This document shows positions 4,183-52,815 of a stretch of 64,000 nucleotides of DNA, piece by piece. A program made the position numbers and the translations under genes. A model generated the notes under the pieces. That model made no database searches. It was not told the DNA's origin and saw nothing but the letters and a program-made list of their open reading frames with translations. Each line of letters begins with the position of its first letter. Within the stretch, counting starts at the first letter, position 1. This stretch comes from Candidatus Dojkabacteria bacterium (GTDB lineage: Bacteria > Patescibacteriota > Dojkabacteria > GCA-002793355), in the NCBI GenBank assembly GCA_030583825.1, contig CP129477.1, positions 138,259 to 202,258 of the forward strand, in the 5' to 3' direction.

Positions 4183-5252
4183 CCTTTCGTTCCTTGTTTT
4201 GTTTCTATTTCAAGCCACGCTCCCTGATCATTTAAAATAATAACAACAGTATCAGGGTCAAGCTTAAATAGTTCCGCTGAATTTAAATCGGGCGCTGCGC
4301 GTACTCTCGCAAATGGTACATTATCTCGCGGACGAATAACTGCCAATGCAAGATTATCACTAAAAACTGTAAACTCAAGCTTTTTTGCTGAGTCTGGAAT
4401 CACTTTGTTGCCTACCTTCAATTCTAATAGTTGCTCATATTTACCCGGAACGATCGGAGTATTCAGCGTTAATTTTATTTCTGTTTGTTCACCAGGCTTT
4501 AATGAGCCAGTATTTTTTTGAATATTTGATGTGGAAATCCAGCTTACATCGTAAAAGGCACTGTTTCCGGGGACACTCACATATACTGGTGCAATAGAAT
4601 CTCCATAGACACCAAACTCTCCTACATTTTTAATAAAAATACTCACGGGCAATGTCTCACGTTGACCAATACGCTCATTTGCCGTAATTCGTTCAATTTC
4701 AAGCTTATATTCTCGTGTTTGCCAATTACCCTCTGCTGGACGAAGTTGCTCACAAACAGTTCCACACTCGGCTTTTTCTTCAAGTACAAGATTGCCGTCT
4801 GTAATTCGCGCAACAGCCGTACTTAAGGTCACTATATTATACTTATCTATTAACGACTGTAGCGAAGATGGTAATGCTCCAGTTGCACCAACAACAATAA
4901 CGGGTTTTCCATCTATTGTCATTTTTGATGAGATATCAGCAATATCACACTGGTGAAAAAAGACATCACCGTTTACAGCAATTGCGTGAAATGGCGAACG
5001 ACGCTGTGTATTGACATAGGTAAATTCATAGAAAAGCTCTTTACTGATATCGCTAGCACCGGTAGATGAACCTTTATAAACACGAAGCAAGTCAACAACA
5101 ATAAGCTCTTCAACGGGAGTAAATTCTGTAATTGCAGAACATTCATAAGGCAATGCCGACTCCGCCGTAATTGTGACAGCAGAAACACGTGGTATACCTA
5201 CTACAAAACTAGAGATAATTGCAGTAAATAAGGCAAAAACAATCCTTTTCAT
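4146..5252 (-). CDS. Secreted hypothetical protein with a C-terminal SH3b-like domain
   Basis: It has an N-terminal signal peptide. The C-terminus reads GAWLEIETKQGTKGWMYRPNL, which fits the bacterial SH3 pattern. Confidence 0.5.
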   Translation of the reverse strand: MKRIVFALFTAIISSFVVGIPRVSAVTITAESALPYECSAITEFTPVEELIVVDLLRVYKGSSTGASDISKELFYEFTYVNTQRRSPFHAIAVNGDVFFHQCDIADISSKMTIDGKPVIVVGATGALPSSLQSLIDKYNIVTLSTAVARITDGNLVLEEKAECGTVCEQLRPAEGNWQTREYKLEIERITANERIGQRETLPVSIFIKNVGEFGVYGDSIAPVYVSVPGNSAFYDVSWISTSNIQKNTGSLKPGEQTEIKLTLNTPIVPGKYEQLLELKVGNKVIPDSAKKLEFTVFSDNLALAVIRPRDNVPFARVRAAPDLNSAELFKLDPDTVVIILNDQGAWLEIETKQGTKGWMYRPNLRFIN

Positions 5253-5268
5253 ATGTCTATTATATACA

Positions 5269-6276
5269 CTACTTTATGAAATGTCGAAATTCAATGGCCG
5301 GATAAAAGATATAGTATGTTGTTGGAATGGCCTGTGGCGCTGCTCCTCCAATTGGTTGCCGCAAAGTTCCATTTAAGAAAAGTCTGTGGTGAGGCATTGC
5401 ATATAACTGTTTATCTTTAACAATTGTAGCATAGACAATATCTGCAGTCGTTAGCTGCATATTACGCGGAACTTCATTTAAAGAGGCACTGGAAACTTCT
5501 TCACAACCTTCTCCATCACAATGTAAATCATGATAACTCACGATTGTAAATTCTTCATGTTTTTTTTGTATTTCATCAATATTTTCCCATGAGCTGACAA
5601 TTCTATATTGTAAGTGTTCCGATGTCTGTAAATATTCAACAGAACATTCAAAACGTGTAACAACCTTATCTGTGACAAAAAATCGGCATAATGGGCCAAG
5701 TTCTTTTGTTACTACTTTTACTGAATCGAGAGTTTGATAAATACTTACTTCGCAGGAAGAAGTTCCTGTTGCTATTTCTTCAGCAGTCAACGTAATATTT
5801 GGAAAGAGAAATGATACAAAACCCGGGACAGCATTACCGCATTCAACATTTCCGGAAGAGATTCCCTTATTGGCAAAAAGAACAAATTTGGGTACTTCTC
5901 CTGAAAAAATAGTTAAAAATTTTTCTTCATCAGCGCTGGTATAACTCTCCTGCTCCTCAATAAAACTACTTTCAAGTTTTGTAACCAATTGCTCCGAATC
6001 TATAATTACGGTTGGATCAATTTTTGAAGTCGTCACTTTGTAGACCGGCATAGTAGTAGGCACAAATCCTTGAGAAGCATCTCGAACCATTGGTCTTACT
6101 AAATTATGAACTGTTATTTTATTGATAAGTGCATTATTTGTGTAATATTCTGGATAATTGAATGTGCCGTATGTTGGCAAATATGTTACTAATGAATATA
6201 ACAATAATCCTACAATCATAATTATTCCAGCAAAAAGCAGCGCGTATACAAGAGCTTTTCTTAGCTTAATAATCAT
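5269..6276 (-). CDS. N-terminally membrane-anchored hypothetical protein that is cysteine-rich and extracytoplasmic
   Basis: A single N-terminal TM helix is followed by about 300 aa carrying roughly 10 Cys. No motif was recognised. Confidence 0.5.
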   Translation of the reverse strand: MIIKLRKALVYALLFAGIIMIVGLLLYSLVTYLPTYGTFNYPEYYTNNALINKITVHNLVRPMVRDASQGFVPTTMPVYKVTTSKIDPTVIIDSEQLVTKLESSFIEEQESYTSADEEKFLTIFSGEVPKFVLFANKGISSGNVECGNAVPGFVSFLFPNITLTAEEIATGTSSCEVSIYQTLDSVKVVTKELGPLCRFFVTDKVVTRFECSVEYLQTSEHLQYRIVSSWENIDEIQKKHEEFTIVSYHDLHCDGEGCEEVSSASLNEVPRNMQLTTADIVYATIVKDKQLYAMPHHRLFLNGTLRQPIGGAAPQAIPTTYYIFYPAIEFRHFIK

Positions 6277-6303: not shown

Positions 6304-9099
6304 TTACCGACATGAGCCCCTGGAAGTATCTCCAATTGAGCAAGTAAACGAACCACACATTGCCATAAATCCAATTTGTGCATCAACAGTAGAAGCACCC
6401 TGCTTTATATATGCGTGAATATGCGGGCCAGTCCAACACTGGCTTTTAGGAACATTTCTTGTCATTGCACCGATCAATGTTCCTTTTGGAATAAGCGTTG
6501 AACTGCTTACTGGTTTTAATGGTGTGGAGTGCATAAATCCATATGTGACACCGCCTGTTGCACTAATAAATTCAAAGAAGTTACCAATACTTGGGCCGCC
6601 TGCTCCACCACAGTTATAATCTCCTCTTCGTATCATATAACCGTCAACTGGTGCATAAATACCATCACCACCGGACGGAGAAATATCAACAGCAGGTTGT
6701 TTACCAGTAAAGTTTGAACAACCATGACTATATCCACCGTATGGCCCTTGGCCACAAGAAAACGATCGAGACCATGGGCAATCTCCTTCTTGAAACTGCG
6801 CATATGTTGACGGGTCAATCGGATTGTTAATAACCGGAGTGTATGTAGCGAAGTCAGGTAACGCAACGCCTTCTGGATTATAAAACTCGTCAGGGATAAA
6901 TTCGGTTGATGAGTTTGCAGATTGTAATCCCGGATCAATCATATCTTGATATGCTCCGTTACAACAAATCATTAACATAATGATACTACCAACTATGATA
7001 ACAACCATAATATCAATGACCACCTTGAGTGCTTTTCCAACAAGCTTATCGAGCATGCCAAAACTCACAACGTTTAAGACCGTATATGCAATTCCTACAA
7101 CATTTGTGAGAGCAGTAAGCAGCATTTTTAGCCCTTTTTTAAGTACTTCGAGACCTAATCGTTTTAAGAGAGCCATAATTGCTGCCATGGCTTTATTCAA
7201 TACAAACTTCATTGCTTGCTTTGTCAATGAAGTAACCCGCTCAATTCCTTTGCTGACCAGTAATTGAGGAGCTCGTGCTACATATTGAGCGTATCTATTG
7301 AACTTAACAAACCGTTGGTATGCTTTATTATTCATCATTCTTGCAGCAAGCCTTGTTTGCCACCCATAGACATTCTTGCCTTTTGCGTCTTTGTCAAAAA
7401 TACCAAACGGTTTGCCTGTAGCAGGATCTATCTTAAAGTTTCCAAAATTTGTGCCACTTACAAGCATTCGTTGGAAGAGCGATCCATTTAAAAAGCCCTG
7501 TGCGATCTGCCATGGATGATATACATGAAGACGGTAGAACATTTTCTGCATTGCATTAGCGTCTTTAGACAGTACGAAGTCGTTGGCAATTACATTGAAT
7601 TTATCAATTTCCATGCCGCCGAATCTTCCACCGAGAGCATCAATTGAGCGAGGAACAATCTTACCGTCTTTCGTTTTATACCATCCTTCCATATTCCCTA
7701 ATCCACCACCACTATTATTTGCAAGCATTTGCAAATATTGTGCCTGAGACGTTGCACTCATACCGTATCTTCCTGACGCTTCAGCTAATACTCGGAATGT
7801 ATCTCCACGCACAAAACCAAGCATTGTGAAGGCGCCTGGGACGTTTTTCGTAAAGTTCTGCCAGCGACTGCGGGTATAATAGTACTGCTCGCTCCATGTC
7901 ATTTTCCCATCTAAACCTCGAGCTGTTGCTGCATATCCGACAAGCTTGCTTGCCATTTCAGTGTCACCGTTATTACGATATGCTTCACTGAGCTTGGCAA
8001 TAGCATATTCTGCCATTTGTCCTTCAGACTTACCGCCAGCTTTTGTTCCTTTTGCTGCTGTTTTTACAAAATCTTCGAATCCACCTGGGCCAGTACTATA
8101 TAGCCAGGCATTTAAATTTGCTTGAACGCCAGGATCAGAGACAGAAGCAAATAAGTTTGCAAGTGAAAGTCTCGCTTCTGCCATTCTGGTTGCTTCTCTT
8201 GCAGGATCAGTTGAATCTCCAGAAAAAATATTGGCAACGGTCATTCGTTTACCTTCGTGCGCACCTGAATTAAAATTGTATTGCTGGTGTTTTGTCCCTC
8301 TGTCTGGATCTTTCATTTGTCCAAGCGCCCTTTCAATTTCCGATGCAACTTGTGCACGCTGGCCTTTATCAGTTACACCTCCAATCATCGCGAATGCCTG
8401 TGCGTAAACACCATCACGGCGGTCTTCTGCAGCTCCTTGGCGAATTGCTTTATTTGAATCAGCGTTTAATGGATTGAAAACATCACGTTTTGCCCTTTCT
8501 TCTGCAAATAATCCTGCATCACGCTTTACATCCATAACAAATGAGGCGACATCACCTTCAATACCTGCCTTTCTGCCTGTGATATAGAGTGCCGCATCTT
8601 GGAAAGAATCTCCAACACCTCCCCAAAATTTCATACTTTTGGTTTGTTGCCAGTTTTCAAGCCATTTGTTGGCTATTTTTTCTGAAAAGCTACTAGGATC
8701 TTTGAAATAATTAATTGCGTTATCCAGGTTCGCGTTGATTTCAATATCGTTTTTACCAACTTCAAAGTTTCGGACATCCATTTGTTTGCCACTTGAGTCT
8801 GTGACAGCTGTAGAAAATCCAGGAGATGTACTTATTGTTATAACAGTGCTGTTTCCAAGCTGAGAACCTTGGTTTATCCATTTAGTAGCGGCACGTTCTG
8901 CAAGTTCACCAACATTATAGAAGGCACCTGCTTGCGCAGCGACGACAGGAAGTGCTTTTTCAAACGCGTCAGAATAAAGGAATAGTACTGGAGCTGAGTT
9001 TGGATTTTTAGTTTTTCGAGCAGAGTCTTCAGCAGTCGTGAATAATGCGTCAAAAATACCTGACAACCCTTCATATGTAGATGGCGCATCTTTAGGCAC
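6304..9099 (-). CDS. Large membrane-spanning protein with a C-terminal M23/LytM-like peptidoglycan hydrolase domain. A CHAP domain is not excluded.
   Basis: It is 931 aa. The N-terminal 650 aa are Ala/Gly/Lys-rich with no signal peptide. Hydrophobic segments lie near residues 660-730. The C-terminus has the pattern VDISPSGGDGIYAPVDGYM ... TGPHIHAYI, which resembles the M23 HxH motif. A GDCPW stretch resembles the CHAP Cys motif. Confidence 0.5.
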   Translation of the reverse strand: MPKDAPSTYEGLSGIFDALFTTAEDSARKTKNPNSAPVLFLYSDAFEKALPVVAAQAGAFYNVGELAERAATKWINQGSQLGNSTVITISTSPGFSTAVTDSSGKQMDVRNFEVGKNDIEINANLDNAINYFKDPSSFSEKIANKWLENWQQTKSMKFWGGVGDSFQDAALYITGRKAGIEGDVASFVMDVKRDAGLFAEERAKRDVFNPLNADSNKAIRQGAAEDRRDGVYAQAFAMIGGVTDKGQRAQVASEIERALGQMKDPDRGTKHQQYNFNSGAHEGKRMTVANIFSGDSTDPAREATRMAEARLSLANLFASVSDPGVQANLNAWLYSTGPGGFEDFVKTAAKGTKAGGKSEGQMAEYAIAKLSEAYRNNGDTEMASKLVGYAATARGLDGKMTWSEQYYYTRSRWQNFTKNVPGAFTMLGFVRGDTFRVLAEASGRYGMSATSQAQYLQMLANNSGGGLGNMEGWYKTKDGKIVPRSIDALGGRFGGMEIDKFNVIANDFVLSKDANAMQKMFYRLHVYHPWQIAQGFLNGSLFQRMLVSGTNFGNFKIDPATGKPFGIFDKDAKGKNVYGWQTRLAARMMNNKAYQRFVKFNRYAQYVARAPQLLVSKGIERVTSLTKQAMKFVLNKAMAAIMALLKRLGLEVLKKGLKMLLTALTNVVGIAYTVLNVVSFGMLDKLVGKALKVVIDIMVVIIVGSIIMLMICCNGAYQDMIDPGLQSANSSTEFIPDEFYNPEGVALPDFATYTPVINNPIDPSTYAQFQEGDCPWSRSFSCGQGPYGGYSHGCSNFTGKQPAVDISPSGGDGIYAPVDGYMIRRGDYNCGGAGGPSIGNFFEFISATGGVTYGFMHSTPLKPVSSSTLIPKGTLIGAMTRNVPKSQCWTGPHIHAYIKQGASTVDAQIGFMAMCGSFTCSIGDTSRGSCR

Positions 9100-9117: not shown

Positions 9118-10590
9118 TTATTTAAAGAATCCTCCGACAATTGGCGCACCAGAAGCGGCTTTCTTAACCGGATCTGCGGCTGCACTAGCTGCTTTACTGC
9201 CTTGAGTACCAAGAAGCTCATCAAGAATATTCGATGACGCAGGAGCCATAAGGAAGATAAGTACAGCAATAATAAGCTGCGGCCCAGCGGCTCTCAAGAA
9301 AGAATCTTCTATTCCTGTTGCTCCAATTGCACCACCCGAAATTGACTCAACAATACTCGCGTTTTCACCAAGGTCAATTGATGCAATGTACAATGCCAAG
9401 TTTACAAAAATAAAGATCATTGGAGGAACCAATGCATTTTTAAACATTTTTCGGATCCATCCCATATATCCATCCTGTTTTCCAGGCAATGATGCAACCA
9501 TAAAGTACACAGGAGCTAGGATAATATCAAGAATCATTCTAATATATGTAGTAAACAGCGTGAAGAATACTCGGAAACCTGCAGTAAAAAGCATTACGGC
9601 AAGAATAAGTTTCGACAAAACATGAACAATTGCGCCCACGATATCAAATCGAATATCAATATCCGTTGGTAAACCCAAAAAGCCAGATCCAGATGTTTCT
9701 ATACCGAGATATTCACCGAGATTTATGGCGCCTAAAATATCTCCATATCGCCCAAGCAATGCAAGCGGAGTCAAATTAATAATAGCAGCAAGACCATTTG
9801 GCAAAAGACCTGAAGATGATCCCTCACTATTAAACATTCCATAAAGAATAATGATCAAAAACTTTGAAAGGTTTAAGAAAAATCCACCCAAGGCAAAACT
9901 TGCAAGAGCAAAGAGAATACCAATAACCAAGTTTTGAAGTGACATACTCACAGTGACAATTGCTTGCCCACCAAGTCTTTGACGAAACATAATCATAAAC
10001 CCTGCATATAACAAGACAATGACAAACCCCATCATTGCAAAGGCAAACGAAAGTCCCCATATCTTACTAATTCCTAACTCTATACCACTTGTGCCCGTAC
10101 CAAGAAAGGCAGCAGCATTTGTATTCCAACTATCTAGTGGTGGACTTTCTGCATATGCAGGATAGTCTACAACTGAACGAAATTCTTTTGGCAATAATAT
10201 TTCTGCGTAGTGCGTTGGAATATCAACTTGTATGGGAGCAAAGAATGCCATTGTAACCATTTGACCTGTAAATTTCAAAAGTCCCGCATTACGCTGTTCT
10301 TCAGGCATTGCTTGAACTTGAGCTGTACATCCGTGTGCACTTTCAGGGCCGTAAAATAGAGTATCTGCAATAACTAATTGATTCATCCAATTAACGCTAC
10401 CTGATCGTAAAGAGTGTGGTTGTTCGTCACCTGAAGCAGATGCATTCATATCTGCTTCTTCGTATATCTTTGCCGAAGGTCGGAAAGTTGGGTCGGTCTG
10501 ACAATATCCCGCTGAAACTGGCTGTGGAGTAAGAAATGCAAAGAATCCTACAATCGTTAAGAATAAAAATATAGTTTTTAATCTATTCAT
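9118..10590 (-). CDS. Polytopic inner-membrane protein that is putatively VirB6/TrbL-like
   Basis: A signal peptide and a periplasmic domain of about 180 aa are followed by at least 6 TM helices and a Gly/Ala-rich C-terminus. The architecture and neighbourhood suggest a T4SS channel component. This is not a sequence-level identification. Confidence 0.4.
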   Translation of the reverse strand: MNRLKTIFLFLTIVGFFAFLTPQPVSAGYCQTDPTFRPSAKIYEEADMNASASGDEQPHSLRSGSVNWMNQLVIADTLFYGPESAHGCTAQVQAMPEEQRNAGLLKFTGQMVTMAFFAPIQVDIPTHYAEILLPKEFRSVVDYPAYAESPPLDSWNTNAAAFLGTGTSGIELGISKIWGLSFAFAMMGFVIVLLYAGFMIMFRQRLGGQAIVTVSMSLQNLVIGILFALASFALGGFFLNLSKFLIIILYGMFNSEGSSSGLLPNGLAAIINLTPLALLGRYGDILGAINLGEYLGIETSGSGFLGLPTDIDIRFDIVGAIVHVLSKLILAVMLFTAGFRVFFTLFTTYIRMILDIILAPVYFMVASLPGKQDGYMGWIRKMFKNALVPPMIFIFVNLALYIASIDLGENASIVESISGGAIGATGIEDSFLRAAGPQLIIAVLIFLMAPASSNILDELLGTQGSKAASAAADPVKKAASGAPIVGGFFK

Positions 10591-16258: not shown

Positions 16259-18175
16259 TTAGTTTTGTTGGGCAACACTTACACTTATATCTACTCTTGA
16301 TTCTTCTTTTGGAACATACCTCAAAAAGTCAGGCATCCACGTTGGGTAAAAGATAATATTTGGAGTTGTTGCGAGAGTATCAATTGCAGAGACGGTTGCA
16401 AGCATTTCCGGCCATTTCTTCCCTGCGATATCGGATCGAAGTTGTTCAACATTCAATCGTGGTGTCACTAAGGCAGAAGCACTAAGTACAAAGGTCACTT
16501 TATCGTCTGTTCCAACTGTTGTTTTTTCAGTCTTTATATCTCGCTGGTCAATGAGTAAGTCAACATCAGAGTTGATTGTCTTATTTAGTTTGTATTTATC
16601 GCCAAGAAATCTTTCTGCAAGCTTTTCATATGATTCTTGGTGGTAATAGTACGCCGTTGCAGTAGTTTTCATTTCAAGAAAAGCCTGTGTTGTTTCAGTT
16701 CCTACAGCTGGGTTTACAACTGGTGTACCGTCAACTTCGCTCTTAAATGATTCCACTATAAAAACGTATCCGTTGTTTTGATTCTTAAATTGCAAGTCTG
16801 ATTTGAGTTGCTCAAAAAGTTCCTTCTTTAGTTGATCAACAGCATCGTCTACATCCTGCTTGCTAAGAACTTTGAATGTTCTCTTTGTTCCGCCTGTAAA
16901 TGCTGCTGCATTTTCTCCTGTTAATGTTGGAAAACCAGCTACTGAATATCCTGTTGTTGGTGTAAGGTTATATTCTTCGCCGAAATCTGCAGCAACAATT
17001 CCTACACTTGAGCTTAAAGAAGGAGGAACATTAATTTCTGCCTGAGTAATGAATTTAAGACCACCAGAGCTTGTGACAGTGGTACCGGCTGGAACTTGTA
17101 TAAATCCTGGGCCAGGATTGCCTTCAATGGTAATAGTTCCGGTTGCTTTTGTTCCATCAACTCCATCACCTGTTGCATTGATATTTACTGATCCACGTTG
17201 TTCTGCACGCTCTTTAATAAGCTGAAATTCTTTTTTATTGACATCAAATCCAGTTACGGCAGTTGTTGCCACAACCGTTTCATTAATTTCGACTTTGTCA
17301 GACACAACTTTCAATTCGATTCGTAATCTTGGGAAAAAGAGATAGTATACAAGAAACATTCCACCAAAAAGTATTAATAACCCGGCACCAATAACTCCAG
17401 CAATGCGAAGCATTGCCTTCGATGAGCCGGCAGGTTTTGCCGGCGCTAATGTTTCAAATCCATCGTTGTCAGACGCTGTTTGCGTTGGCGGTGTTTTCTT
17501 TCTAAATAGAGACGCAAACGGCCCTGGTTGGGATTTGGCAACAACCTTAGAAACATCCATTCCCATAATTCCATATCCACCAGGAATTCGGTCTTCTTCG
17601 TTTACCTTAGGAGGTCGCAATCGTATGGGAGCTTCTACTTCTGGATCAGCCTCATCACTCTCGCTTTTTGCCTCATTATCTCGAGTTGCAGCCAAAGGCT
17701 TTATATCTTCGTCATCTTTTGAAGCATCCACCGTTCGTCCTCCGACGATAACTTCGGGTGCATCATCCTTTTCTTCTTTAGCTGTTTCCTTTGATTCTTT
17801 CTCAACTTTGTCTTCTTTTTCATCTTTTTTCGAGTTTAAACCTACCTGGCTCTGATGAAGCTCGTCTAATTCTTCCTGTCCTTTTGCCCACATATTTGGA
17901 GTAACATCGGACTGATTAGTGACAACAATATTTCCTGCATCTGAGGCAAGCTGAGCATATTTCTTATTTGGGGCAACCAACACAAGGTTTTTACCCAATG
18001 CCAACGCCTTTCTCTTGAGCGTCTTTAATCCTACAGGGCTGTTGATAAGGTCATTTCCTTCAGGCAAAACAAGAAGGATATTTGTTCCATCTGCCTTTTT
18101 AATAGTATCAACAACGATATTAATATCGTCATCAATAGTTGCATTTACTTTTATCACTTCTGTTTTTTTTGCCAT
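16259..18175 (-). CDS. Hypothetical bitopic membrane protein (638 aa) with a cytoplasmic N-domain, an acidic low-complexity linker, a TM helix, and an extracellular domain of about 350 aa
   Basis: There is a TM helix near residue 265 (MLRIAGVIGAGLLILFGGMFLVYYLFF). The gene starts 2 nt after the upstream FtsA-like gene. No domain was recognised. Confidence 0.5.
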   Translation of the reverse strand: MAKKTEVIKVNATIDDDINIVVDTIKKADGTNILLVLPEGNDLINSPVGLKTLKRKALALGKNLVLVAPNKKYAQLASDAGNIVVTNQSDVTPNMWAKGQEELDELHQSQVGLNSKKDEKEDKVEKESKETAKEEKDDAPEVIVGGRTVDASKDDEDIKPLAATRDNEAKSESDEADPEVEAPIRLRPPKVNEEDRIPGGYGIMGMDVSKVVAKSQPGPFASLFRKKTPPTQTASDNDGFETLAPAKPAGSSKAMLRIAGVIGAGLLILFGGMFLVYYLFFPRLRIELKVVSDKVEINETVVATTAVTGFDVNKKEFQLIKERAEQRGSVNINATGDGVDGTKATGTITIEGNPGPGFIQVPAGTTVTSSGGLKFITQAEINVPPSLSSSVGIVAADFGEEYNLTPTTGYSVAGFPTLTGENAAAFTGGTKRTFKVLSKQDVDDAVDQLKKELFEQLKSDLQFKNQNNGYVFIVESFKSEVDGTPVVNPAVGTETTQAFLEMKTTATAYYYHQESYEKLAERFLGDKYKLNKTINSDVDLLIDQRDIKTEKTTVGTDDKVTFVLSASALVTPRLNVEQLRSDIAGKKWPEMLATVSAIDTLATTPNIIFYPTWMPDFLRYVPKEESRVDISVSVAQQN

Positions 18176-18177
18176 AG

Positions 18178-19434
18178 TTAATAATCACCCAAATAATTAA
18201 AGTGGGGCTTTTTCAGTACTTCCCAATAAAAACGGGCAAGTGACGCAGGAGTAACATCATAAGGATTAACAAGTAACCCGCTTTTATCATAGACTCTATC
18301 CAGTTTATCTGGAGTTACGAGCTGAACTTTCGGAATTCTTTTGAACGGTAATCGTTTATACCATGGATACGCCAAAATTGCTTCTTTTAAATCTGGAAGC
18401 ATCGCACCACCACCACACATATAAAACTGTGCAGGATATTGCTTTACATTTTCAAGATCTTCCAGCGCAACTTCAAGTGCTTCTACCCACAACGAAACAT
18501 CTGTAGAAAGACTTCTTCTGACTTCGTCACGCATGTCTAGTGGTAATTCGCCTAGCGAGTACTTAATTTTTCGTCCTTCTGCAACATTAAAGCTTGCATC
18601 CATTGATTGAGAGATTCGTTTTGTAAATGCACGACCTCCAAAGGCGTACATTTTTGTTTGAATATGGTTTCCATTCTGCACCAGAGCAACGTCAGTTGTT
18701 CCACCACCGACATCAATAAAAATGCCGGAAAAATTGTGATCTGCACTTCCTGAAAATGCTCGCGAAACTGCAAAAGGCTGAGTAACAATAGATGCAATGC
18801 CAAGCTCAAGCTCCTTTGAAAGCTTTCTCAGTGTATCAATATAAGGCTTTGGTGCAAAAGATGCGTACAAATAAAGCTGAATTTCTTGTGGAGATGTGCC
18901 TTCAAGTTGTGGAACGGCAATACCATCTGCCCCAAGGCCAGTTACTGTAATTTGTAATACTTCAACTTGATCTTCAGTTTCACCTAATCGTTTAGCAAGC
19001 TCAGCTTTTCCATTTTCTAAAATATCAGAAATGACAGAGTTAATAATAAGCTGTGCTTCCTGATCTGAAATTTTCTTGCCAGCAGCACGTCCGCGGTCAT
19101 ATTGCACATTAATAGTAATTCCGTTAATCAATTCTCCTGCCATTCCTAGAACCATTCGTCGTGGTCTGTCTTCAGGATCAACTGCGTCTGCAAGCTTTTG
19201 CACAACTAACCGTGCATTTTCAAGAACTGTTTCTTCGTTAAGAATAACACCGCTTCGCATGGCATGAGTCTGCTGTTTTACCTGATACGAATACCAGACA
19301 TCAACACCAAGATCATTCATAGAAAATAAAAGGCCTTTAAGTACCTCGGTACCGATATCAAGTGAAATCAGATACTTCTCTTCTTTTTTCTCTTTTGGCT
19401 TTTCTTTCTGTCCAAAAAGCGGAAACAGTTTCAT
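18178..19434 (-). CDS. Actin-like ATPase of the FtsA/PilM type, more FtsA-like
   Basis: A phosphate-1-like motif ISLDIGTEVLKGLLF is present. The fold pattern and the 418-aa length resemble FtsA. No ftsZ is adjacent. Confidence 0.5.
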   Translation of the reverse strand: MKLFPLFGQKEKPKEKKEEKYLISLDIGTEVLKGLLFSMNDLGVDVWYSYQVKQQTHAMRSGVILNEETVLENARLVVQKLADAVDPEDRPRRMVLGMAGELINGITINVQYDRGRAAGKKISDQEAQLIINSVISDILENGKAELAKRLGETEDQVEVLQITVTGLGADGIAVPQLEGTSPQEIQLYLYASFAPKPYIDTLRKLSKELELGIASIVTQPFAVSRAFSGSADHNFSGIFIDVGGGTTDVALVQNGNHIQTKMYAFGGRAFTKRISQSMDASFNVAEGRKIKYSLGELPLDMRDEVRRSLSTDVSLWVEALEVALEDLENVKQYPAQFYMCGGGAMLPDLKEAILAYPWYKRLPFKRIPKVQLVTPDKLDRVYDKSGLLVNPYDVTPASLARFYWEVLKKPHFNYLGDY

Positions 19435-46227: not shown

Positions 46228-47013
46228 CTATTCATTTCGAATGGAATTCCAGGTAAAAAATTCATTCACAAATATTTCTTTTTTGCCTGGTAGTGTGAAT
46301 TTCCCAGTTCGCTTAATATATTGAATAACTCCAAGCAAGTACTCTATTGCGTCTAAGAAAGGCAATGAAGGCTTTTTATTTTCAATTGATTTTTCCAGTA
46401 AGGCCGCATAATCACTCATCTCTTTATGCCATGCAGGAAAGTATTTCGCAATCCACCTATTTGCTTTAACAAGCTCCCAAAATGTATCATGTCGCTGAAA
46501 CAAAATGATTGAATCAACTGCCTGTACAGCAAACGCAAGGCTTTGGTGTAACGCAAAGTTATCAGATGTTTTATAAAAGTTAATACAGAATTTGTCTGTA
46601 ACATTTGAAGCATGACGATTTCTTCTTTTACCAAGCAATGAAAAGACAAGCCAATCGTAAAAACGTGTGAGCCAAATTCTTCGAGGAGAAACAATAATCC
46701 AAAGATCAATATCGTGATCAGGTGATGCATTTAACGATGCAACAGATCCTGTAATAGCAACCATTTCTACCCATGGGAGAAACTTCCAAACCCACAAAAA
46801 CTTTTTTGCAAGCGTAATTTTGCGTAGTGATTCTTTTACTCTCTGTGCACGATCATGGTCAGAAAATAACTTTGCATTCTCAGAGACGACATATCGCCTT
46901 GCCGAATCTGGCATATCGGCATAACGAAGAGCATCGTACGGCCATTGATATTTCGCTTTATATGCTATAACTTCGGAAGAAATTTGTGTCTTTGGTAATT
47001 TCATAAATTGCAT
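46228..47013 (-). CDS. Nucleotidyltransferase-domain (Pol-beta superfamily) protein
   Basis: The NTase signature GS-x10-DHDIDLWIIV (GSVASLNASPDHDIDL) is present. No partner HEPN gene is adjacent. Confidence 0.45.
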   Translation of the reverse strand: MQFMKLPKTQISSEVIAYKAKYQWPYDALRYADMPDSARRYVVSENAKLFSDHDRAQRVKESLRKITLAKKFLWVWKFLPWVEMVAITGSVASLNASPDHDIDLWIIVSPRRIWLTRFYDWLVFSLLGKRRNRHASNVTDKFCINFYKTSDNFALHQSLAFAVQAVDSIILFQRHDTFWELVKANRWIAKYFPAWHKEMSDYAALLEKSIENKKPSLPFLDAIEYLLGVIQYIKRTGKFTLPGKKEIFVNEFFTWNSIRNE

Positions 47014-47083: not shown

Positions 47084-47860
47084 ATGTATGAGCACGCAAT
47101 CCCCCAAAATATTATGGACTATGAGTTCAAACTTTTTGCGGGATTAACAATCAAACAATTTATTATTATTGCAATTAGTGGTGGGTTAGCATTTGGTATC
47201 TTTCAATTGCGACAAATCGGTATTTTGCCTGATGTATTTATGTGGGTACTTTTGCCGACAGTACTGCTTGGCGGGATCGCACTTGGCATGGGAAGTTATC
47301 AAAAGCGTCCGTTTGACGAGTGGGTAACTCACTTTTTTAGAGCGATTAACTCTCCATTACGCCGGTCATGGAAAAAAACAGATGCTGCAGTTCCTAAAGA
47401 GCAATTCTTTGGTACAAAAATCTCGGTATTTCCAAAGTATCTTAGCGTATATTTTCTAAGCGAAGATGAATATCGCAAGTTTACTCAATATTCTGTAAAT
47501 CAGGCTCCCGTCGCAACTACTCCATCAACATTGAGTCCAGTTATTCCAATTACAGCAGAAAACATTGGAGACTACGCAGATCCGAACATTGTATTGCCAA
47601 TGATTCCAAATACAATTGCCTTTCGTATTATGCAGGATGGAATCCCAACAGAAGGAGTTATCGTGTACGTAAAAGATAGCAATGGTAACGTGGTAACCGC
47701 CCTTAAAAGCAATGAATCAGGTATTTTGTACTTTGACCAAAGTTTCCCTAATGGTGTGTATATTTTCGAGTTTCAGTCCGATATGGTCGAACTACCAAAG
47801 TTGCAGATTATGTTTGAAGGCGGAAACTATCCATTACTTAACATTAGTCCGTTGTCATAA
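47084..47860 (+). CDS. PrgI-family (VirB3-like) T4SS membrane protein with a C-terminal beta-sandwich-like extension
   Basis: The N-terminus IPQNIMDYEFKLFAGLTIKQFIIIA plus two TM helices matches the PrgI family. An extra 130 aa contain GVIVYVKDSNGNVVTALKSNESGILYF. The stop overlaps the start of the next gene (ATAATGG). Confidence 0.6.
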   Translation: MYEHAIPQNIMDYEFKLFAGLTIKQFIIIAISGGLAFGIFQLRQIGILPDVFMWVLLPTVLLGGIALGMGSYQKRPFDEWVTHFFRAINSPLRRSWKKTDAAVPKEQFFGTKISVFPKYLSVYFLSEDEYRKFTQYSVNQAPVATTPSTLSPVIPITAENIGDYADPNIVLPMIPNTIAFRIMQDGIPTEGVIVYVKDSNGNVVTALKSNESGILYFDQSFPNGVYIFEFQSDMVELPKLQIMFEGGNYPLLNISPLS

Positions 47861-48495
47861 TGGCGAGCAATCCAACAGACCCACGAAACGCGCCAATTGT
47901 GGCGTCAACTCAAGAATACCTTGAAATTGCTGATGTCATTAGTGATTTATTGTTAACCAAAAATGGCACTGTCTGTCTCATTATTCGTACATCATCTGTA
48001 AACTTTGATCTTCTTTCAGAAGTTGAACAGGATATTAAAATTCAATCTTTTGCATCGCTCGTAAACTCGCTTGACTACGATATGCAGATTTTGATTGAAA
48101 CTCAAAAAGTAAATATCAGCTCTTATGTAGAATTTCTCGATCAAATGGATACTCCTGACCTTTCTCCTGGATTGAAAAGACAATTTACCATTTATAAAGA
48201 GTTTATTCGAAACCTTATCACTAAAAAAGAAATTCTCGATAAGAAGTTTATGATTGTTATTCCATTCCGATCAACAACGCCAGTAAGCCCATTGTCTCCA
48301 CTTGAATACAAACATAAGATCCTTGAAACAGCGATTAACTTTTTATACCCTAAAAAGTACCACATGTTGAAAATGCTCAAAGGAATGGGACTTGATGGCT
48401 ACCAGATGACAAATAAAGAAATTGTTAAATACTTTTTTGATGTGTTTAACCCGGACAATCAAATCCAGATTGAAGGAATTAATATTCGGTTATAA
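47860..48495 (+). CDS. virB4: VirB4/PrgJ-like T4SS ATPase, N-terminal fragment, ending at an in-frame TAA
   Basis: QEYLEIADVISDLLLTKNGTVCLIIRTSSVNFDLLSEVEQDIKIQSFASLVNSL follows the conserved N-terminal pattern of Gram-positive VirB4 proteins (IPY..V.DG.I.T..G.F.K.Y.L.DVNF..AS.EEQE.IF..Y..FLNS). It is in the same reading frame as the next ORF. Confidence 0.65.
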   Translation: MASNPTDPRNAPIVASTQEYLEIADVISDLLLTKNGTVCLIIRTSSVNFDLLSEVEQDIKIQSFASLVNSLDYDMQILIETQKVNISSYVEFLDQMDTPDLSPGLKRQFTIYKEFIRNLITKKEILDKKFMIVIPFRSTTPVSPLSPLEYKHKILETAINFLYPKKYHMLKMLKGMGLDGYQMTNKEIVKYFFDVFNPDNQIQIEGINIRL

Positions 48496-48501
48496 TTATT
48501 T

Positions 48502-50376
48502 ATGGACTTTCAGGCACTGCTTAAAAATTTGCCGTTTGCGAAAAAAGAAGAACAGGGTGTTGTTATCCCCGGAGCCGATGGAACTGCAGTTACTGTGGAT
48601 CCAAACGATATGAACATTGTGGACTTGATTGCCCCTCAGTACTTAGAAATGGATTGGAACTACATGAAAATCAACAACAAGTACTACTCTGTTCTCATGA
48701 TCACGGATTATCCCCGAACTGTACGTTCAACATGGCTTTCTCCACTCATTAACTTTGAATCATCACTTGCGATCAGCACATTTTACTATCCGGTAGATTC
48801 AGACGAAATTCTCGACAAGCTAAAAAAGAAAATTGCAGAGCTTGAAGCATCACTCGCAACAGAATACGAAAAAGGAAAGGTTCTCGATCCAAAAAATAAG
48901 GTCGCATTGCAGGACGCACAATCACTGCTTGATAATGTCGCCTCCGGAAAAGAAAAGTTCTTTAACACAGGAATGTATATCCGTGTTTCTGCAGCATCTC
49001 CAAAAGAGCTTGATTCGTTAATCAAAAACGTTCAGAACACGCTTCGTGCAATCGGATTAAATGCCGTTCCATTAACCTTACGTGTTGATGAAGGAATTAC
49101 TTCGACATTGCCATATGCTCTCGACCCTATTTATAAAGTCCGTAACATGGATACAACTGCCCTCGCCATGACCTTTCCGTTCGTGACGTCTGACTTAACC
49201 ATGAGTCAGGGTATCCTGTACGGCGTTAATATGCACAATAATAGTATGGTTATTTTCGACAGGTTTGAAATGCCGAACTTGAACGAAGTTATCTTTGCTA
49301 CATCAGGTGCTGGTAAAAGCTACCTCGTTAAACTCGAAGCGATGCGTTACCTTTTGACCGGATGTCAGGTACTTATCATTGACCCGGAAAGCGAATACGA
49401 AAAACTTTCACGAGCGGTTGATGGTGAATACATTACATTCTCCCAAGATACAGGGTCAAAAATTAACCCGTTCGAATTTCTTAAGTCCTCGAAAGGTGGA
49501 ACAAAAAATATCTTGAACGACAAAATTCAAGGTTTACATACTCTTATGAAGCTAATGCTTGGAGAGCTTTCAAATGTAGAGTCTTCACTACTTGACCGAG
49601 CATTCCGTATGACTTACAACGAAAAAGGAATTAACAACGATCCTGATACCTGGACAAATCCAGCGCCACTTTTGGAAGACTTGTATAAAGTTCTAAAAGG
49701 TATGGCAGAAAAAGAATCGCACGAGCTTGCCGCACGACTTGAAAAGTTCGTATTTGGTAGCGCTGCCGGAGTATTTAACCAACCGACAAATATTGAAATT
49801 ACAAACAAGTTTACTGTATTTAGCATTCGTGACCTTCAAGACGATTTGCGACCTATCGCAATGTACATGATTCTTGATTTCATCTGGACACGAGTTCGCG
49901 AAGACTTACGAAAACGAATTCTTATCGTTGACGAAGCATGGACAATGATGCAATACGAAGATTCTGCGCGTTTCTTGTATGGAATCGCAAAGCGCGGACG
50001 AAAATACTATCTTGGACTCACGACAATCAGCCAGGACGTAGACGAATTCCTTGCCTCTCGATACGGAAAGGCTGTTGTCACAAACTCAAGCTTGCAATTT
50101 TTGTTAAAGCAAAGCCCTGCAGCAATTGACCTTATCACAAACACATTCAACCTATCGTCAGGTGAAAGAAACTTCCTGTTAAGCGCAGGTGTTGGAGAAG
50201 GTATCTTCTTTGCAGGACGAAATCACGTTGCTATTAAAATCATCGCGAGCCGAGGTGAACACCGCTTAATCACGTCGAACCCGAAAGAGCTTTCAAAAAT
50301 GAAAGAACAAAACCTCCAGTTCAGCGAAGAAGATATAGCTGAAAGCGCATTGATTTATGAGCCAGGAACAGAGTAA
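48502..50376 (+). CDS. virB4: VirB4/TrbE/CagE-like T4SS ATPase, C-terminal 624 aa including the ATPase domain
   Basis: Walker A is ATSGAGKSYLVK and Walker B is ILIVDEAWTMM. Family-typical regions include DYPRTVRSTWLSPL and GLTTISQDVDEF. Confidence 0.8.
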   Translation: MDFQALLKNLPFAKKEEQGVVIPGADGTAVTVDPNDMNIVDLIAPQYLEMDWNYMKINNKYYSVLMITDYPRTVRSTWLSPLINFESSLAISTFYYPVDSDEILDKLKKKIAELEASLATEYEKGKVLDPKNKVALQDAQSLLDNVASGKEKFFNTGMYIRVSAASPKELDSLIKNVQNTLRAIGLNAVPLTLRVDEGITSTLPYALDPIYKVRNMDTTALAMTFPFVTSDLTMSQGILYGVNMHNNSMVIFDRFEMPNLNEVIFATSGAGKSYLVKLEAMRYLLTGCQVLIIDPESEYEKLSRAVDGEYITFSQDTGSKINPFEFLKSSKGGTKNILNDKIQGLHTLMKLMLGELSNVESSLLDRAFRMTYNEKGINNDPDTWTNPAPLLEDLYKVLKGMAEKESHELAARLEKFVFGSAAGVFNQPTNIEITNKFTVFSIRDLQDDLRPIAMYMILDFIWTRVREDLRKRILIVDEAWTMMQYEDSARFLYGIAKRGRKYYLGLTTISQDVDEFLASRYGKAVVTNSSLQFLLKQSPAAIDLITNTFNLSSGERNFLLSAGVGEGIFFAGRNHVAIKIIASRGEHRLITSNPKELSKMKEQNLQFSEEDIAESALIYEPGTE

Positions 50377-51723: not shown

Positions 51724-51809
51724 GGAAGGGTGTCAGAGTGGTCGAATGAGACGGTCTTGAAAACCGTTATAGGGTCTCCCTATCGTGGGTTCGAATCCCA
51801 CCCCTTCCG
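51724..51809 (+). tRNA. tRNA-Ser(TGA), type II
   Basis: The acceptor stem is GGAAGGG/CCCTTCC. The anticodon stem is ACGGT/ACCGT with loop CTTGAAA. The variable arm is 17 nt. The T-arm is GTGGG-TTCGAAT-CCCAC. No CCA is encoded. Confidence 0.85.
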
Positions 51810-52095: not shown

Positions 52096-52815
52096 GTGAA
52101 ACTTACTATTAAAATGAAATTTGAACTTGATAATTATGCTAGAAACATCTCCGACAATCTTCTGATTGAAGATTTAATTGCTATTGCTAATAAATTGAAC
52201 AAAAATTCAATTACTCACGATGAATACAATCGAGAGGGAAAGTATAGTAGCTCGACTTATCTCCGAAGATTTGGCAGTTGGTTTAATGCTTTAGAAAAAG
52301 CTGGTTTACAAAAAACTAGAACACCCGCAAATATTCCAGAGGAAGACTTATTTAGAAATATTGAGGAAGTTTGGACAAAGCTTGGTAGACAGCCACGATA
52401 TCAAGAAACTAAAACGCCACTTTCTAAATATAGTGCTGGAACTTACGAAAATCGTTTTGGCACCTGGCGGAAAGCACTCGAAAAATTCATATTATATATC
52501 AACGCAGACAAATTTGGTGAAGAAGAAGGTACAAACGATTCTCCAAATGAGGTAACTTCTGTTAATGATGATTCAGGAAAAGTTTTCAAGCATAAAACAA
52601 AAAGAGAAATATCCGAGAGATTACGATTTAGAATATTGATGAGGGATGGATTTACATGTAAGAAATGTGGTCGTAGCCCTATGAAAGAAATGGGGGTTGA
52701 GTTACATGTTGATCACATTGCCCCATGGTCAAAAGGTGGCGAAACTCTTCCCGAAAATTTAGAGACAAAATGCTCACGTTGTAATTTAGGAAAGGGAAAC
52801 GCTTTTAACGAATAG
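52096..52815 (+). CDS. HNH endonuclease with tandem N-terminal HNH-associated repeats
   Basis: The C-terminal HNH motif is HVDHIAPWSKGGETLPENLETKCSRCNLGKG. The unit KYSxxTYxxRFG[ST]WxxALEK occurs twice (KYSSSTYLRRFGSWFNALEKAG and KYSAGTYENRFGTWRKALEKF). The ORF has a GTG start, and an ATG at 52114 is an alternative. A TATAAT lies at 52078-52083. Confidence 0.7.
   Translation: MKLTIKMKFELDNYARNISDNLLIEDLIAIANKLNKNSITHDEYNREGKYSSSTYLRRFGSWFNALEKAGLQKTRTPANIPEEDLFRNIEEVWTKLGRQPRYQETKTPLSKYSAGTYENRFGTWRKALEKFILYINADKFGEEEGTNDSPNEVTSVNDDSGKVFKHKTKREISERLRFRILMRDGFTCKKCGRSPMKEMGVELHVDHIAPWSKGGETLPENLETKCSRCNLGKGNAFNE

What the first reader, a model, noticed from the sequence alone, without database searches (positions are those of the whole stretch)
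47084..50376. T4SS core (PrgI/VirB3-like then VirB4) in which virB4 is split by a single in-frame TAA
ORFs 47860..48495 and 48502..50376 are in the same reading frame. They are separated only by TAA (48493-48495) followed by two codons before an ATG. Together they total 835 aa. They reconstruct a full-length Gram-positive-type VirB4/PrgJ: the conserved N-terminal region is followed by the Walker A/B ATPase domain. The upstream PrgI-like gene is translationally coupled (ATAATGG). TAA is used as a genuine stop elsewhere in the window, for example at alaS, mltG and the LCP gene, so this is not a recoding signature. The possibilities are a recent nonsense mutation (pseudogene), a bona fide two-polypeptide VirB4, programmed readthrough or reinitiation, or a sequencing error. 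No VirD4 or relaxase is in the window, which argues for a non-conjugative T4SS-like apparatus. Such systems have been reported in CPR lineages with roles in host interaction or DNA uptake (recalled from the literature).
Basis: partly seen in the sequence, partly recalled or inferred. Interest (0 to 1): 0.78.

Follow-up and report, generated by a model that had tools for sequence, protein, structure and literature searches.

The report
Two-gene TrsD plus VirB4, already known

Summary
ORFs 47860-48495 (211 aa) and 48502-50376 (624 aa) share a frame, separated by TAA plus 6 nt, and follow a PrgI/VirB3-like gene with a TAATG overlap.

The reading "virB4 split by a stop" is not what happened recently.
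- The 211-aa protein belongs to a large family of stand-alone proteins (71 of 71 word-index hits are 173-233 aa; 3,562 cluster representatives match).
- It is a remote homologue of staphylococcal TrsD/TraD (hhalign 95%, E 2e-8).
- In 81 related loci the two genes are never fused, and virB4 is out of frame in 75.
- A relative with 95% identical proteins keeps the same TAA but has a 5-nt spacer, so its virB4 is out of frame.
- Both genes are under strong purifying selection (dN/dS about 0.02).

The prgI-trsD-virB4 module in Patescibacteria, and the absence of relaxases, were published in 2025 (PMC12102498). I found no VirD4 or relaxase in the window.

Verdict: real, ordinary, already known.

The parts
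47084..47860 (+). prgI / virB3-like membrane protein (258 aa). It has two predicted TM helices (residues about 17-35 and 51-69) and a beta-rich C-terminal extension of about 170 aa.
   Evidence: Pfam PF12666 PrgI 6.2e-12, 46.3 bits against a cutoff of 27. Hydropathy scan. Homologue found by tblastn (E<=1e-4) in 80 of the 92 loci held.
47860..48495 (+). trsD/traD-like gene (211 aa, soluble). It is a stand-alone homologue of the N-terminal region of long VirB4 proteins.
48493..48501 (+). Gene boundary: the genuine TAA stop of trsD (48493-48495) plus a 6-nt spacer TTATTT before the virB4 ATG.
   Evidence: The TAA is at the homologous position in L087, L091, L089 and L001, with spacers of 5, 103, 13 and 2 nt. 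No fusion was found in 81 loci.
48502..50376 (+). virB4 ATPase, short form (624 aa). Walker A GAGKS is at residues 269-273 (nt 49306-49320) and Walker B IVDEAW at residues 475-480 (nt 49924-49941).
   Evidence: NCBIfam NF045971 CD1110-type VirB4, 377.6 bits against a cutoff of 325, aligned to model positions 183-734 of 752. Pfam P-loop_TraG 2e-23, AAA_10 and CagE_TrbE_VirB 5e-7. Motif positions. dN/dS is 0.025.

Best explanation
This is a chromosomal three-gene module, prgI(virB3)-trsD-virB4, of the Patescibacteria (Dojkabacteria-type) type IV secretion system.

The 211-aa product is a TrsD/TraD-family protein. It is a separately encoded counterpart of the first roughly 200 residues that are part of the polypeptide in long VirB4 ATPases. 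The 624-aa product is a short VirB4 that starts at the CagE/TrbE/VirB domain and carries the Walker A/B ATPase.

The three genes are probably co-transcribed and translationally coupled (TAATG overlap, then a 6-nt spacer).

Inferred mechanism: the two-TM PrgI/VirB3-like protein anchors the VirB4 hexamer at the membrane. TrsD supplies in trans the N-terminal subdomain that contacts VirB3 and the membrane complex in single-chain VirB4s. Together they form the energising base of a non-conjugative T4SS.

The shared reading frame in this genome is a coincidence of spacer length.

Shown here: the gene identities, the conservation of the boundary, purifying selection, and colinearity with long VirB4. 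Inferred: the physical TrsD-VirB4-PrgI complex and its role.
For: Stand-alone family:
- 71 of 71 homologues are 173-233 aa, down to 36% identity.
- 3,562 cluster representatives match at E<=1e-3, and the domain is N-terminal in all but two of the 150 listed (P0137 and P0149 carry a 55-82-residue leader).
- At least 572 genome loci across Patescibacteria encode a relative.

Boundary conserved:
- Of 81 loci, none is fused. Frame offsets are 40, 35 and 6, and 50 loci have overlapping stop and start codons.
- A relative with 95% identical proteins has the same TAA but a 5-nt spacer.

Selection: dN/dS is 0.02 for trsD and 0.025 for virB4, with synonymous sites near saturation.

Identity of the two proteins:
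- NCBIfam TrsD 1.1e-6.
- hhalign to bona fide S. aureus TraD (NF041427, 1e-67) gives 95.3% probability, E 2.4e-8, over 177 columns.
- The same gene order, traC-traD-traE, is on pV605.

Link to the VirB4 N-terminus:
- VirB4_plasma model positions 112-280 match TrsD and 293-892 match VirB4.
- VirB4 residue 41 aligns to residue 174 of a 740-aa Lactococcus VirB4.
- A rare natural fusion, P0109, is colinear: TrsD at 6-210 and VirB4 at 210-774.

Literature: TrsD is the most abundant T4SS component in Patescibacteria (2,272 homologues, 1,664 next to virB4). It has remote homology to the VirB4 N-terminus and is essential in Ca. Southlakia epibionticum. Relaxases are mostly absent (PMC12102498).
Against: - Similarity to curated TrsD is far below the NCBIfam cutoff (28.6 against 200 bits).
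- The profile comparison with one long Lactococcus VirB4 was not significant (E 0.65).
- The profile found no solved structure by sequence.
- No experiment shows that TrsD binds VirB4 or PrgI, and the literature says no function has been assigned.
- Other core parts (VirB6, VirB8, VirB1) are not adjacent to the module here.
Confidence: 0.9

Rival explanations
1. Recent nonsense mutation: a formerly single 835-aa virB4 was inactivated by a TAA, leaving a pseudogene.
For: The two ORFs are in frame, only 9 nt apart, and together are colinear with long VirB4s.
Against: The same TAA and a separate ATG occur in all close and distant relatives, with different spacers and frames. Both ORFs have dN/dS of about 0.02 with synonymous sites near saturation. 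All 71 homologues are stand-alone proteins.
Confidence: 0.01
2. Sequencing or assembly error created a false stop at 48493-48495.
For: None beyond the in-frame geometry. Reads were not available.
Against: Independent assemblies from different samples (JGI 3300037311, SRR13020431, SRR6483250, JGI 3300068448, CP129470) all have the stop at the homologous codon.
Confidence: 0.01
3. Programmed stop-codon readthrough (or a low-level fusion) yields an 835-aa TrsD-VirB4 in this genome in addition to the two separate proteins.
For: The in-frame 6-nt spacer would permit it. A natural fused homologue exists (P0109). No obvious Shine-Dalgarno sequence lies close to the virB4 ATG.
Against: 75 of 81 related loci, including the relative with 95% identical proteins, are out of frame or overlapping, so readthrough cannot be a conserved mechanism. 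TAA is the commonest ordinary stop in the window. No recoding signal was identified.
Confidence: 0.03
4. The 211-aa protein is an independent accessory subunit. It is unrelated by descent to the VirB4 N-terminus and merely always sits next to virB4.
For: The sequence links to VirB4 are weak (E 7e-6 to one model; E 0.65 to a Lactococcus VirB4). PDB sequence search found nothing. Many family members carry long, unrelated C-terminal extensions.
Against: - The short VirB4 lacks exactly the region that long VirB4s have (it aligns from model position 183 of 752).
- The matches are colinear within the single VirB4_plasma model.
- The best structural match is VirB4 itself.
- A colinear fusion exists.
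- Published profile work reached the same conclusion (PMC12102498, citing Guglielmini 2014).
Confidence: 0.06

Closest known systems
TrsD/TrsE of Staphylococcus aureus pGO1, equal to TraD/TraE of pSK41-type plasmids (seen here in pV605, CP013960.1)
   Same: Same gene order: a small VirB3-like membrane protein, then a soluble TrsD/TraD of about 210-230 aa, then a short VirB4 of about 620-670 aa. Profile-profile match is 95.3%, E 2.4e-8, over nearly the full length, including the VN..LL...EQ motif. Both VirB4s align from about position 183 of the CD1110 model.
   Different: Identity is only about 24%, and the window protein scores 28.6 bits against the NCBIfam cutoff of 200. The staphylococcal system is plasmid-borne and conjugative (relaxase, coupling protein). 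The window module is chromosomal, next to lepA, with no relaxase or VirD4 in 64 kb. PrgI here is 258 aa, against 135 aa for TraC.
Patescibacteria T4SS as described by Quinonero-Coronel et al. 2025 (PMC12102498) and Wang et al. 2023 (Ca. Southlakia epibionticum)
   Same: The components VirB3/PrgI, TrsD and VirB4 are adjacent, the VirB4 is MPF_FATA-related, the system is chromosomal, and relaxase is absent. The TrsD family was reported as the most abundant T4SS component, with 1,664 copies next to virB4.
   Different: Nothing substantive. This window is one more instance, of Dojkabacteria type. Here the module is reduced to three adjacent genes, and a candidate VirB6-like gene lies 37 kb away rather than in a cluster.
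Single-chain long VirB4 (R388 TrwK, F TraC, Lactococcus/Clostridioides CD1110-type, Mycoplasma Mbov_0397-type)
   Same: TrsD plus the short VirB4 are colinear with these proteins. The fold of TrsD best matches TrwK. A PrgI gene precedes the long VirB4 in Lactococcus pSD96_03.
   Different: There the N-terminal region is covalently part of the ATPase. Here it is a separate polypeptide. Only one fused form was seen among the 150 best cluster representatives (P0109).

Membership tests
TrsD/TraD family (NCBIfam NF041427) | Scores above the curated cutoff of the family model (200 bits) | tested here: not met
   28.6 bits, E 1.1e-6, aligned over model positions 19-193 of 201. It is a remote relative, not a member by NCBI's subfamily threshold.
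TrsD/TraD family (NCBIfam NF041427) | Full-length homology to a bona fide member | tested here: met
   hhalign of the A1 profile against S. aureus pV605 TraD (itself 227.7 bits to NF041427): probability 95.3%, E 2.4e-8, 177 columns.
TrsD/TraD family (NCBIfam NF041427) | Stand-alone soluble protein of about 200-230 aa, encoded between a VirB3-like gene and a short virB4 | tested here: met
   211 aa with no TM segment. The gene order prgI-trsD-virB4 is found here, in 81 related loci, and on pV605.
Pfam PF26593 'TraC-like' | Significant match to the Pfam model | not testable with these tools
   The local Pfam-A copy evidently lacks this model: P0062, whose precomputed hit is strong, returns nothing. 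Precomputed hits exist for 70 of 71 homologues, including the 95%-identical P0001, where it is marked weak.
VirB4 N-terminal region (homology of TrsD to it) | Sequence or fold similarity to the N-terminal roughly 200-280 residues of single-chain VirB4 | tested here: inconclusive
VirB4 ATPase, monoderm CD1110 type (NCBIfam NF045971) | Scores above the curated cutoff; Walker A and Walker B motifs present | tested here: met
   377.6 bits against a cutoff of 325, but only model positions 183-734 of 752 are covered. GAGKS is at residues 269-273 and IVDEAW at 475-480.
PrgI / VirB3 (Pfam PF12666) | Above the gathering score; small membrane protein with two TM helices encoded just upstream of virB4 | tested here: met
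   46.3 bits against 27. Two hydrophobic helices. At 258 aa it is about twice the usual length.
Conjugative T4SS (mobile element) | Relaxase and VirD4-type coupling protein associated with virB4 | tested here: not met
   No relaxase or T4CP Pfam domain in any of the 46 window ORFs scanned; the five left unscanned are 123-151 aa, too short for either. The context is housekeeping and syntenic with other Dojkabacteria. The test covers only these 64 kb.
Pseudogene created by a nonsense mutation | Stop absent from orthologues; relaxed selection on the fragments | tested here: not met
   The stop is conserved in all 81 loci. dN/dS is 0.02-0.06.

The most novel reading that the evidence does not exclude
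TrsD may not be just a detached piece of VirB4. It may be a separately dosed adaptor that couples PrgI/VirB3 to the VirB4 hexamer. Its separate translation would let the cell set a stoichiometry or assembly order different from the ATPase. Its lineage-specific C-terminal extensions (up to about 500 aa in relatives) would be consistent with such a role. In Dojkabacteria a minimal prgI-trsD-virB4 module is kept at a fixed site next to lepA, while the channel genes are dispersed. A weaker variant of this reading is that the in-frame 6-nt spacer here allows occasional readthrough to a fused 835-aa form like the natural fusion P0109.
Probability: 0.2. Interest if true: 0.4.

Novelty: already known. 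Interest (0 to 1): 0.12.

Why it matters
It matters mainly as a caution. In monoderm-type and Patescibacteria T4SS loci, a 200-aa ORF directly upstream of a short virB4 is a real gene (trsD/traD), not a broken virB4, even when the two happen to be in frame. Annotators should not merge them or flag a pseudogene.

Biologically, the module belongs to the Patescibacteria T4SS, which has been reported as essential for epibiotic growth in one cultured species. The role of TrsD in that system is still unassigned. This window adds one more instance but no new principle.

Tried and rejected
- A profile search of PDB sequences with the TrsD alignment found nothing, even at E 10.
- hhalign of the TrsD profile against a single long Lactococcus VirB4 was not significant. 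The best stretch fell at residues 10-62, where it would be expected, but E was 0.65. I therefore rate the homology to the VirB4 N-terminus as supported but not proven here.
- Local Pfam scans gave no family for the 211-aa protein. The model seen in the precomputed annotations (PF26593) is evidently not in the local copy.
- Pfam and NCBIfam at permissive E-values gave nothing for the candidate VirB6-like 490-aa membrane protein or its neighbours.
- A literature search for 'TrsD' returned only one relevant paper.
- The pseudogene, sequencing-error and conserved-readthrough readings were considered and rejected on the comparative data.
- I did not attempt a complex prediction. The structure tool takes one chain and only sequences from the window or from the homologue search.
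Full report
**Observation.**
- A 258-aa ORF (47084-47860) ends in TAA, overlapping by one base the ATG of a 211-aa ORF (47860-48495).
- That ORF ends in TAA (48493-48495), followed by TTATTT and the ATG (48502) of a 624-aa ORF ending at 50376.
- The last two ORFs share a reading frame.
- TAA is the commonest ordinary stop in the window: it ends 13 of 19 Pfam-supported genes, and TAG ends the other 6.

**Identities.**
- The first ORF is a PrgI/VirB3-family membrane protein. Pfam PF12666 scores 46.3 bits against a cutoff of 27, and there are two hydrophobic helices.
- The 624-aa ORF is a VirB4 ATPase of the monoderm CD1110 type. NCBIfam NF045971 scores 377.6 bits against a cutoff of 325. Pfam hits are P-loop_TraG, AAA_10 and CagE_TrbE_VirB. 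Walker A GAGKS and Walker B IVDEAW are present.
- The VirB4 aligns only from position 183 of the 752-position CD1110 model, and from position 238 of the 792-position VirB4_CagE model. It therefore lacks the N-terminal region of about 180-240 residues found in single-chain VirB4s.
- The 211-aa ORF has no hit in the local Pfam. In NCBIfam it weakly matches the TrsD/TraD family (E 1.1e-6, well below the cutoff). It also matches positions 112-280 of the Mbov_0397-type VirB4 model, whose positions 293-892 are matched by the 624-aa ORF.

**Is the boundary a lesion or a gene boundary?** A word-index search found 71 homologues of the 211-aa protein. Their identity ranges from 95% down to 36%, and every one is a stand-alone protein of 173-233 aa. 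They come from Dojkabacteria, Shapirobacteria and other Patescibacteria, and 70 of 71 carry a precomputed Pfam PF26593 'TraC-like' hit. An exhaustive profile search found 3,562 cluster representatives at E<=1e-3. In the 150 listed, the domain starts within the first 21 residues of all but two, which carry a 55-82-residue leader. A scan of one genome per species found at least 572 loci.

I analysed the fetched loci.
- Among 81 distinct loci that hold both genes, none is fused.
- virB4 is offset by +1 in 35 loci, by +2 in 40, and is in frame in only 6.
- In 50 loci the virB4 start precedes the trsD stop (overlaps of 1 to 317 nt, most commonly -1 and -4).
- trsD ends in TAA (54 loci), TGA (20) or TAG (7).

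The closest relatives settle the question.

| Locus | Identity to the window 211-aa protein | Stop | Spacer | virB4 frame |
|---|---|---|---|---|
| L087/L088 | 95% (VirB4 also 95% identical) | TAA at the same codon | AAACA (5 nt) | out of frame |
| L091 | 85% | TAA | 103 nt | out of frame |
| L089 | 77% | TAA | 13 nt | out of frame |
| CP129470 (L001) | 66% | TAA | 2 nt | out of frame |

Synonymous sites between the window and L087 are near saturation (dS about 2), while dN is 0.04. That gives dN/dS of 0.02 for trsD and 0.025 for virB4. A recent nonsense mutation and a sequencing error are therefore excluded, and a conserved readthrough mechanism is very unlikely. The shared frame is the accident of a 6-nt spacer.

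**What the 211-aa protein is.**
- A 43-kb S. aureus conjugative plasmid (pV605, pSK41/pGO1 type) has the same order: traC (135 aa), traD (227 aa), traE (670-aa short VirB4).
- Its TraD is a bona fide NF041427 member at 227.7 bits.
- The profile of the window family matches it with 95.3% probability, E 2.4e-8, over 177 columns.
- One of the 150 best cluster representatives, P0109 (787 aa), is a natural fusion. The TrsD part occupies residues 6-210 (34% identity to the window protein). It abuts a VirB4 part at residues 210-774 (53% identity, aligned to window VirB4 residues 40-603).
- A Lactococcus plasmid shows the fused architecture directly after PrgI: a 740-aa VirB4 whose residue 174 aligns to window VirB4 residue 41.
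- Weaker points: the TrsD profile did not match that Lactococcus protein significantly, and it found no PDB sequence.

**Literature.** Quinonero-Coronel et al. 2025 (PMC12102498) surveyed T4SS genes in Patescibacteria.
- Among monoderm systems it is otherwise known only from the pGO1 subclass.
- The TrsD homologue of Ca. Southlakia epibionticum is listed as essential (Wang et al. 2023).
- Relaxases are absent from most of these systems, so a non-conjugative role is proposed.
- A 2025 FEMS review (PMC12857230) repeats the picture.

**Context.** Pfam found no VirD4-type coupling protein or relaxase in any of the 46 window ORFs scanned; the five left unscanned are 123-151 aa, too short for either. 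The neighbourhood is housekeeping: uvrD, RNase J, pnp, infB, nusA, dnaJ, alaS, yceG/mltG, an LCP gene, holA and lepA. It is syntenic with other Dojkabacteria, in the order lepA, a divergent 250-270-aa gene, prgI, trsD, virB4. The module is therefore vertically inherited and chromosomal, not part of a mobile element within these 64 kb.

**Mechanism.**
- Shown here: three adjacent, coupled, strongly conserved genes. TrsD plus the short VirB4 is colinear with long VirB4.
- From established knowledge of VirB3 and VirB4 (PMC12102498, citing Mossey 2010 and others): VirB3 anchors VirB4 to the membrane.
- Inferred: PrgI anchors the VirB4 hexamer and TrsD supplies the missing N-terminal subdomain in trans. 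Together they form the cytoplasmic-face energising complex of a T4SS used for something other than conjugation.
- Confidence that this is a genuine, ancient two-gene TrsD/VirB4 arrangement is 0.9. Confidence in the detailed docking model is lower, because it is untested.

**Verdict.** The arrangement is already known, so interest is low (0.12).

Noticed in passing
window 9118-10590 (-), with neighbours 6304-9099 (-), 5269-6276 (-) and 4146-5252 (-): A 490-aa protein with a signal-like N-terminus and about 7-9 hydrophobic helices has no Pfam or NCBIfam hit. Its tblastn homologues lie 2-9 kb from trsD-virB4 in 13 non-Dojkabacteria Patescibacteria loci. It is a candidate VirB6-like T4SS channel subunit, lying 37 kb from virB4 in this window. 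Its neighbours may belong with it: a 931-aa protein with a weak Peptidase_M23 hit (1e-4) and two TM helices, a 335-aa protein with an N-terminal TM helix, and a 368-aa SH3_3 protein.
   Followed up: partly
window 46228-47013 (-): A 261-aa protein with only weak nucleotidyltransferase-fold hits (NTP_transf_2, 0.003) is transcribed divergently from prgI. A homologue lies near the module in 32 related loci, on the opposite strand just upstream of prgI in nearly all; 22 of these 32 loci also carry lepA. This may be conserved synteny or a functional partner; I cannot say which.
   Followed up: partly
window 47084-47860 (+), residues about 90-258: The PrgI/VirB3-like protein is about twice the usual size (258 aa, against 122-135 aa on Lactococcus and Staphylococcus plasmids). 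It has a beta-rich C-terminal extension with only weak Ig-like or beta-sandwich hits (bMG3, SdrD_B). The extension is kept in relatives, whose proteins are 248-271 aa.
   Followed up: no
window 51724-51809 (tRNA-Ser tga) and 52096-52815 (+): An HNH homing-endonuclease-type gene (HNH_repeat 1e-30, HNH 3e-12) lies directly downstream of a tRNA-Ser, in the lowest-GC stretch of the window (0.344). It may be a small mobile insertion.
   Followed up: no
L003 3631-7365 and L004 3222-6956 (Shapirobacteria): virB4 in this lineage encodes 1,244 aa because it carries an intein (Intein_splicing plus a LAGLIDADG_3 homing endonuclease). The cluster lies near dnaA and dnaN.
   Followed up: no
P0109 (787 aa; cluster representative, genomic origin not looked up): This is a rare colinear TrsD-VirB4 fusion protein, the only one among the 150 best cluster representatives of the TrsD profile. 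I did not check whether it is a true fusion or a frameshift or gene-calling artefact.
   Followed up: partly
P0075-P0221 (cluster representatives): Many TrsD-family proteins carry C-terminal extensions of 100-500 aa. None of the nine long (398-715 aa), unfused proteins that I scanned has a Pfam domain in its extension.
   Followed up: no
window 16259-18175 (-): A 638-aa protein has a Baseplate_J-like match (8e-7). It lies next to an FtsA/PilM-like ATPase gene at 18178-19434. Its significance is unknown.
   Followed up: no
window 50357-50376: The annotated start of the downstream glucose/sorbosone dehydrogenase gene (GSDH, 1e-87) overlaps the virB4 3' end by 20 nt. The same adjacency is present in L087, and GSDH also follows virB4 in L089. 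It is absent in L091 and CP129470, so GSDH is a lineage-specific neighbour rather than part of the module.
   Followed up: partly
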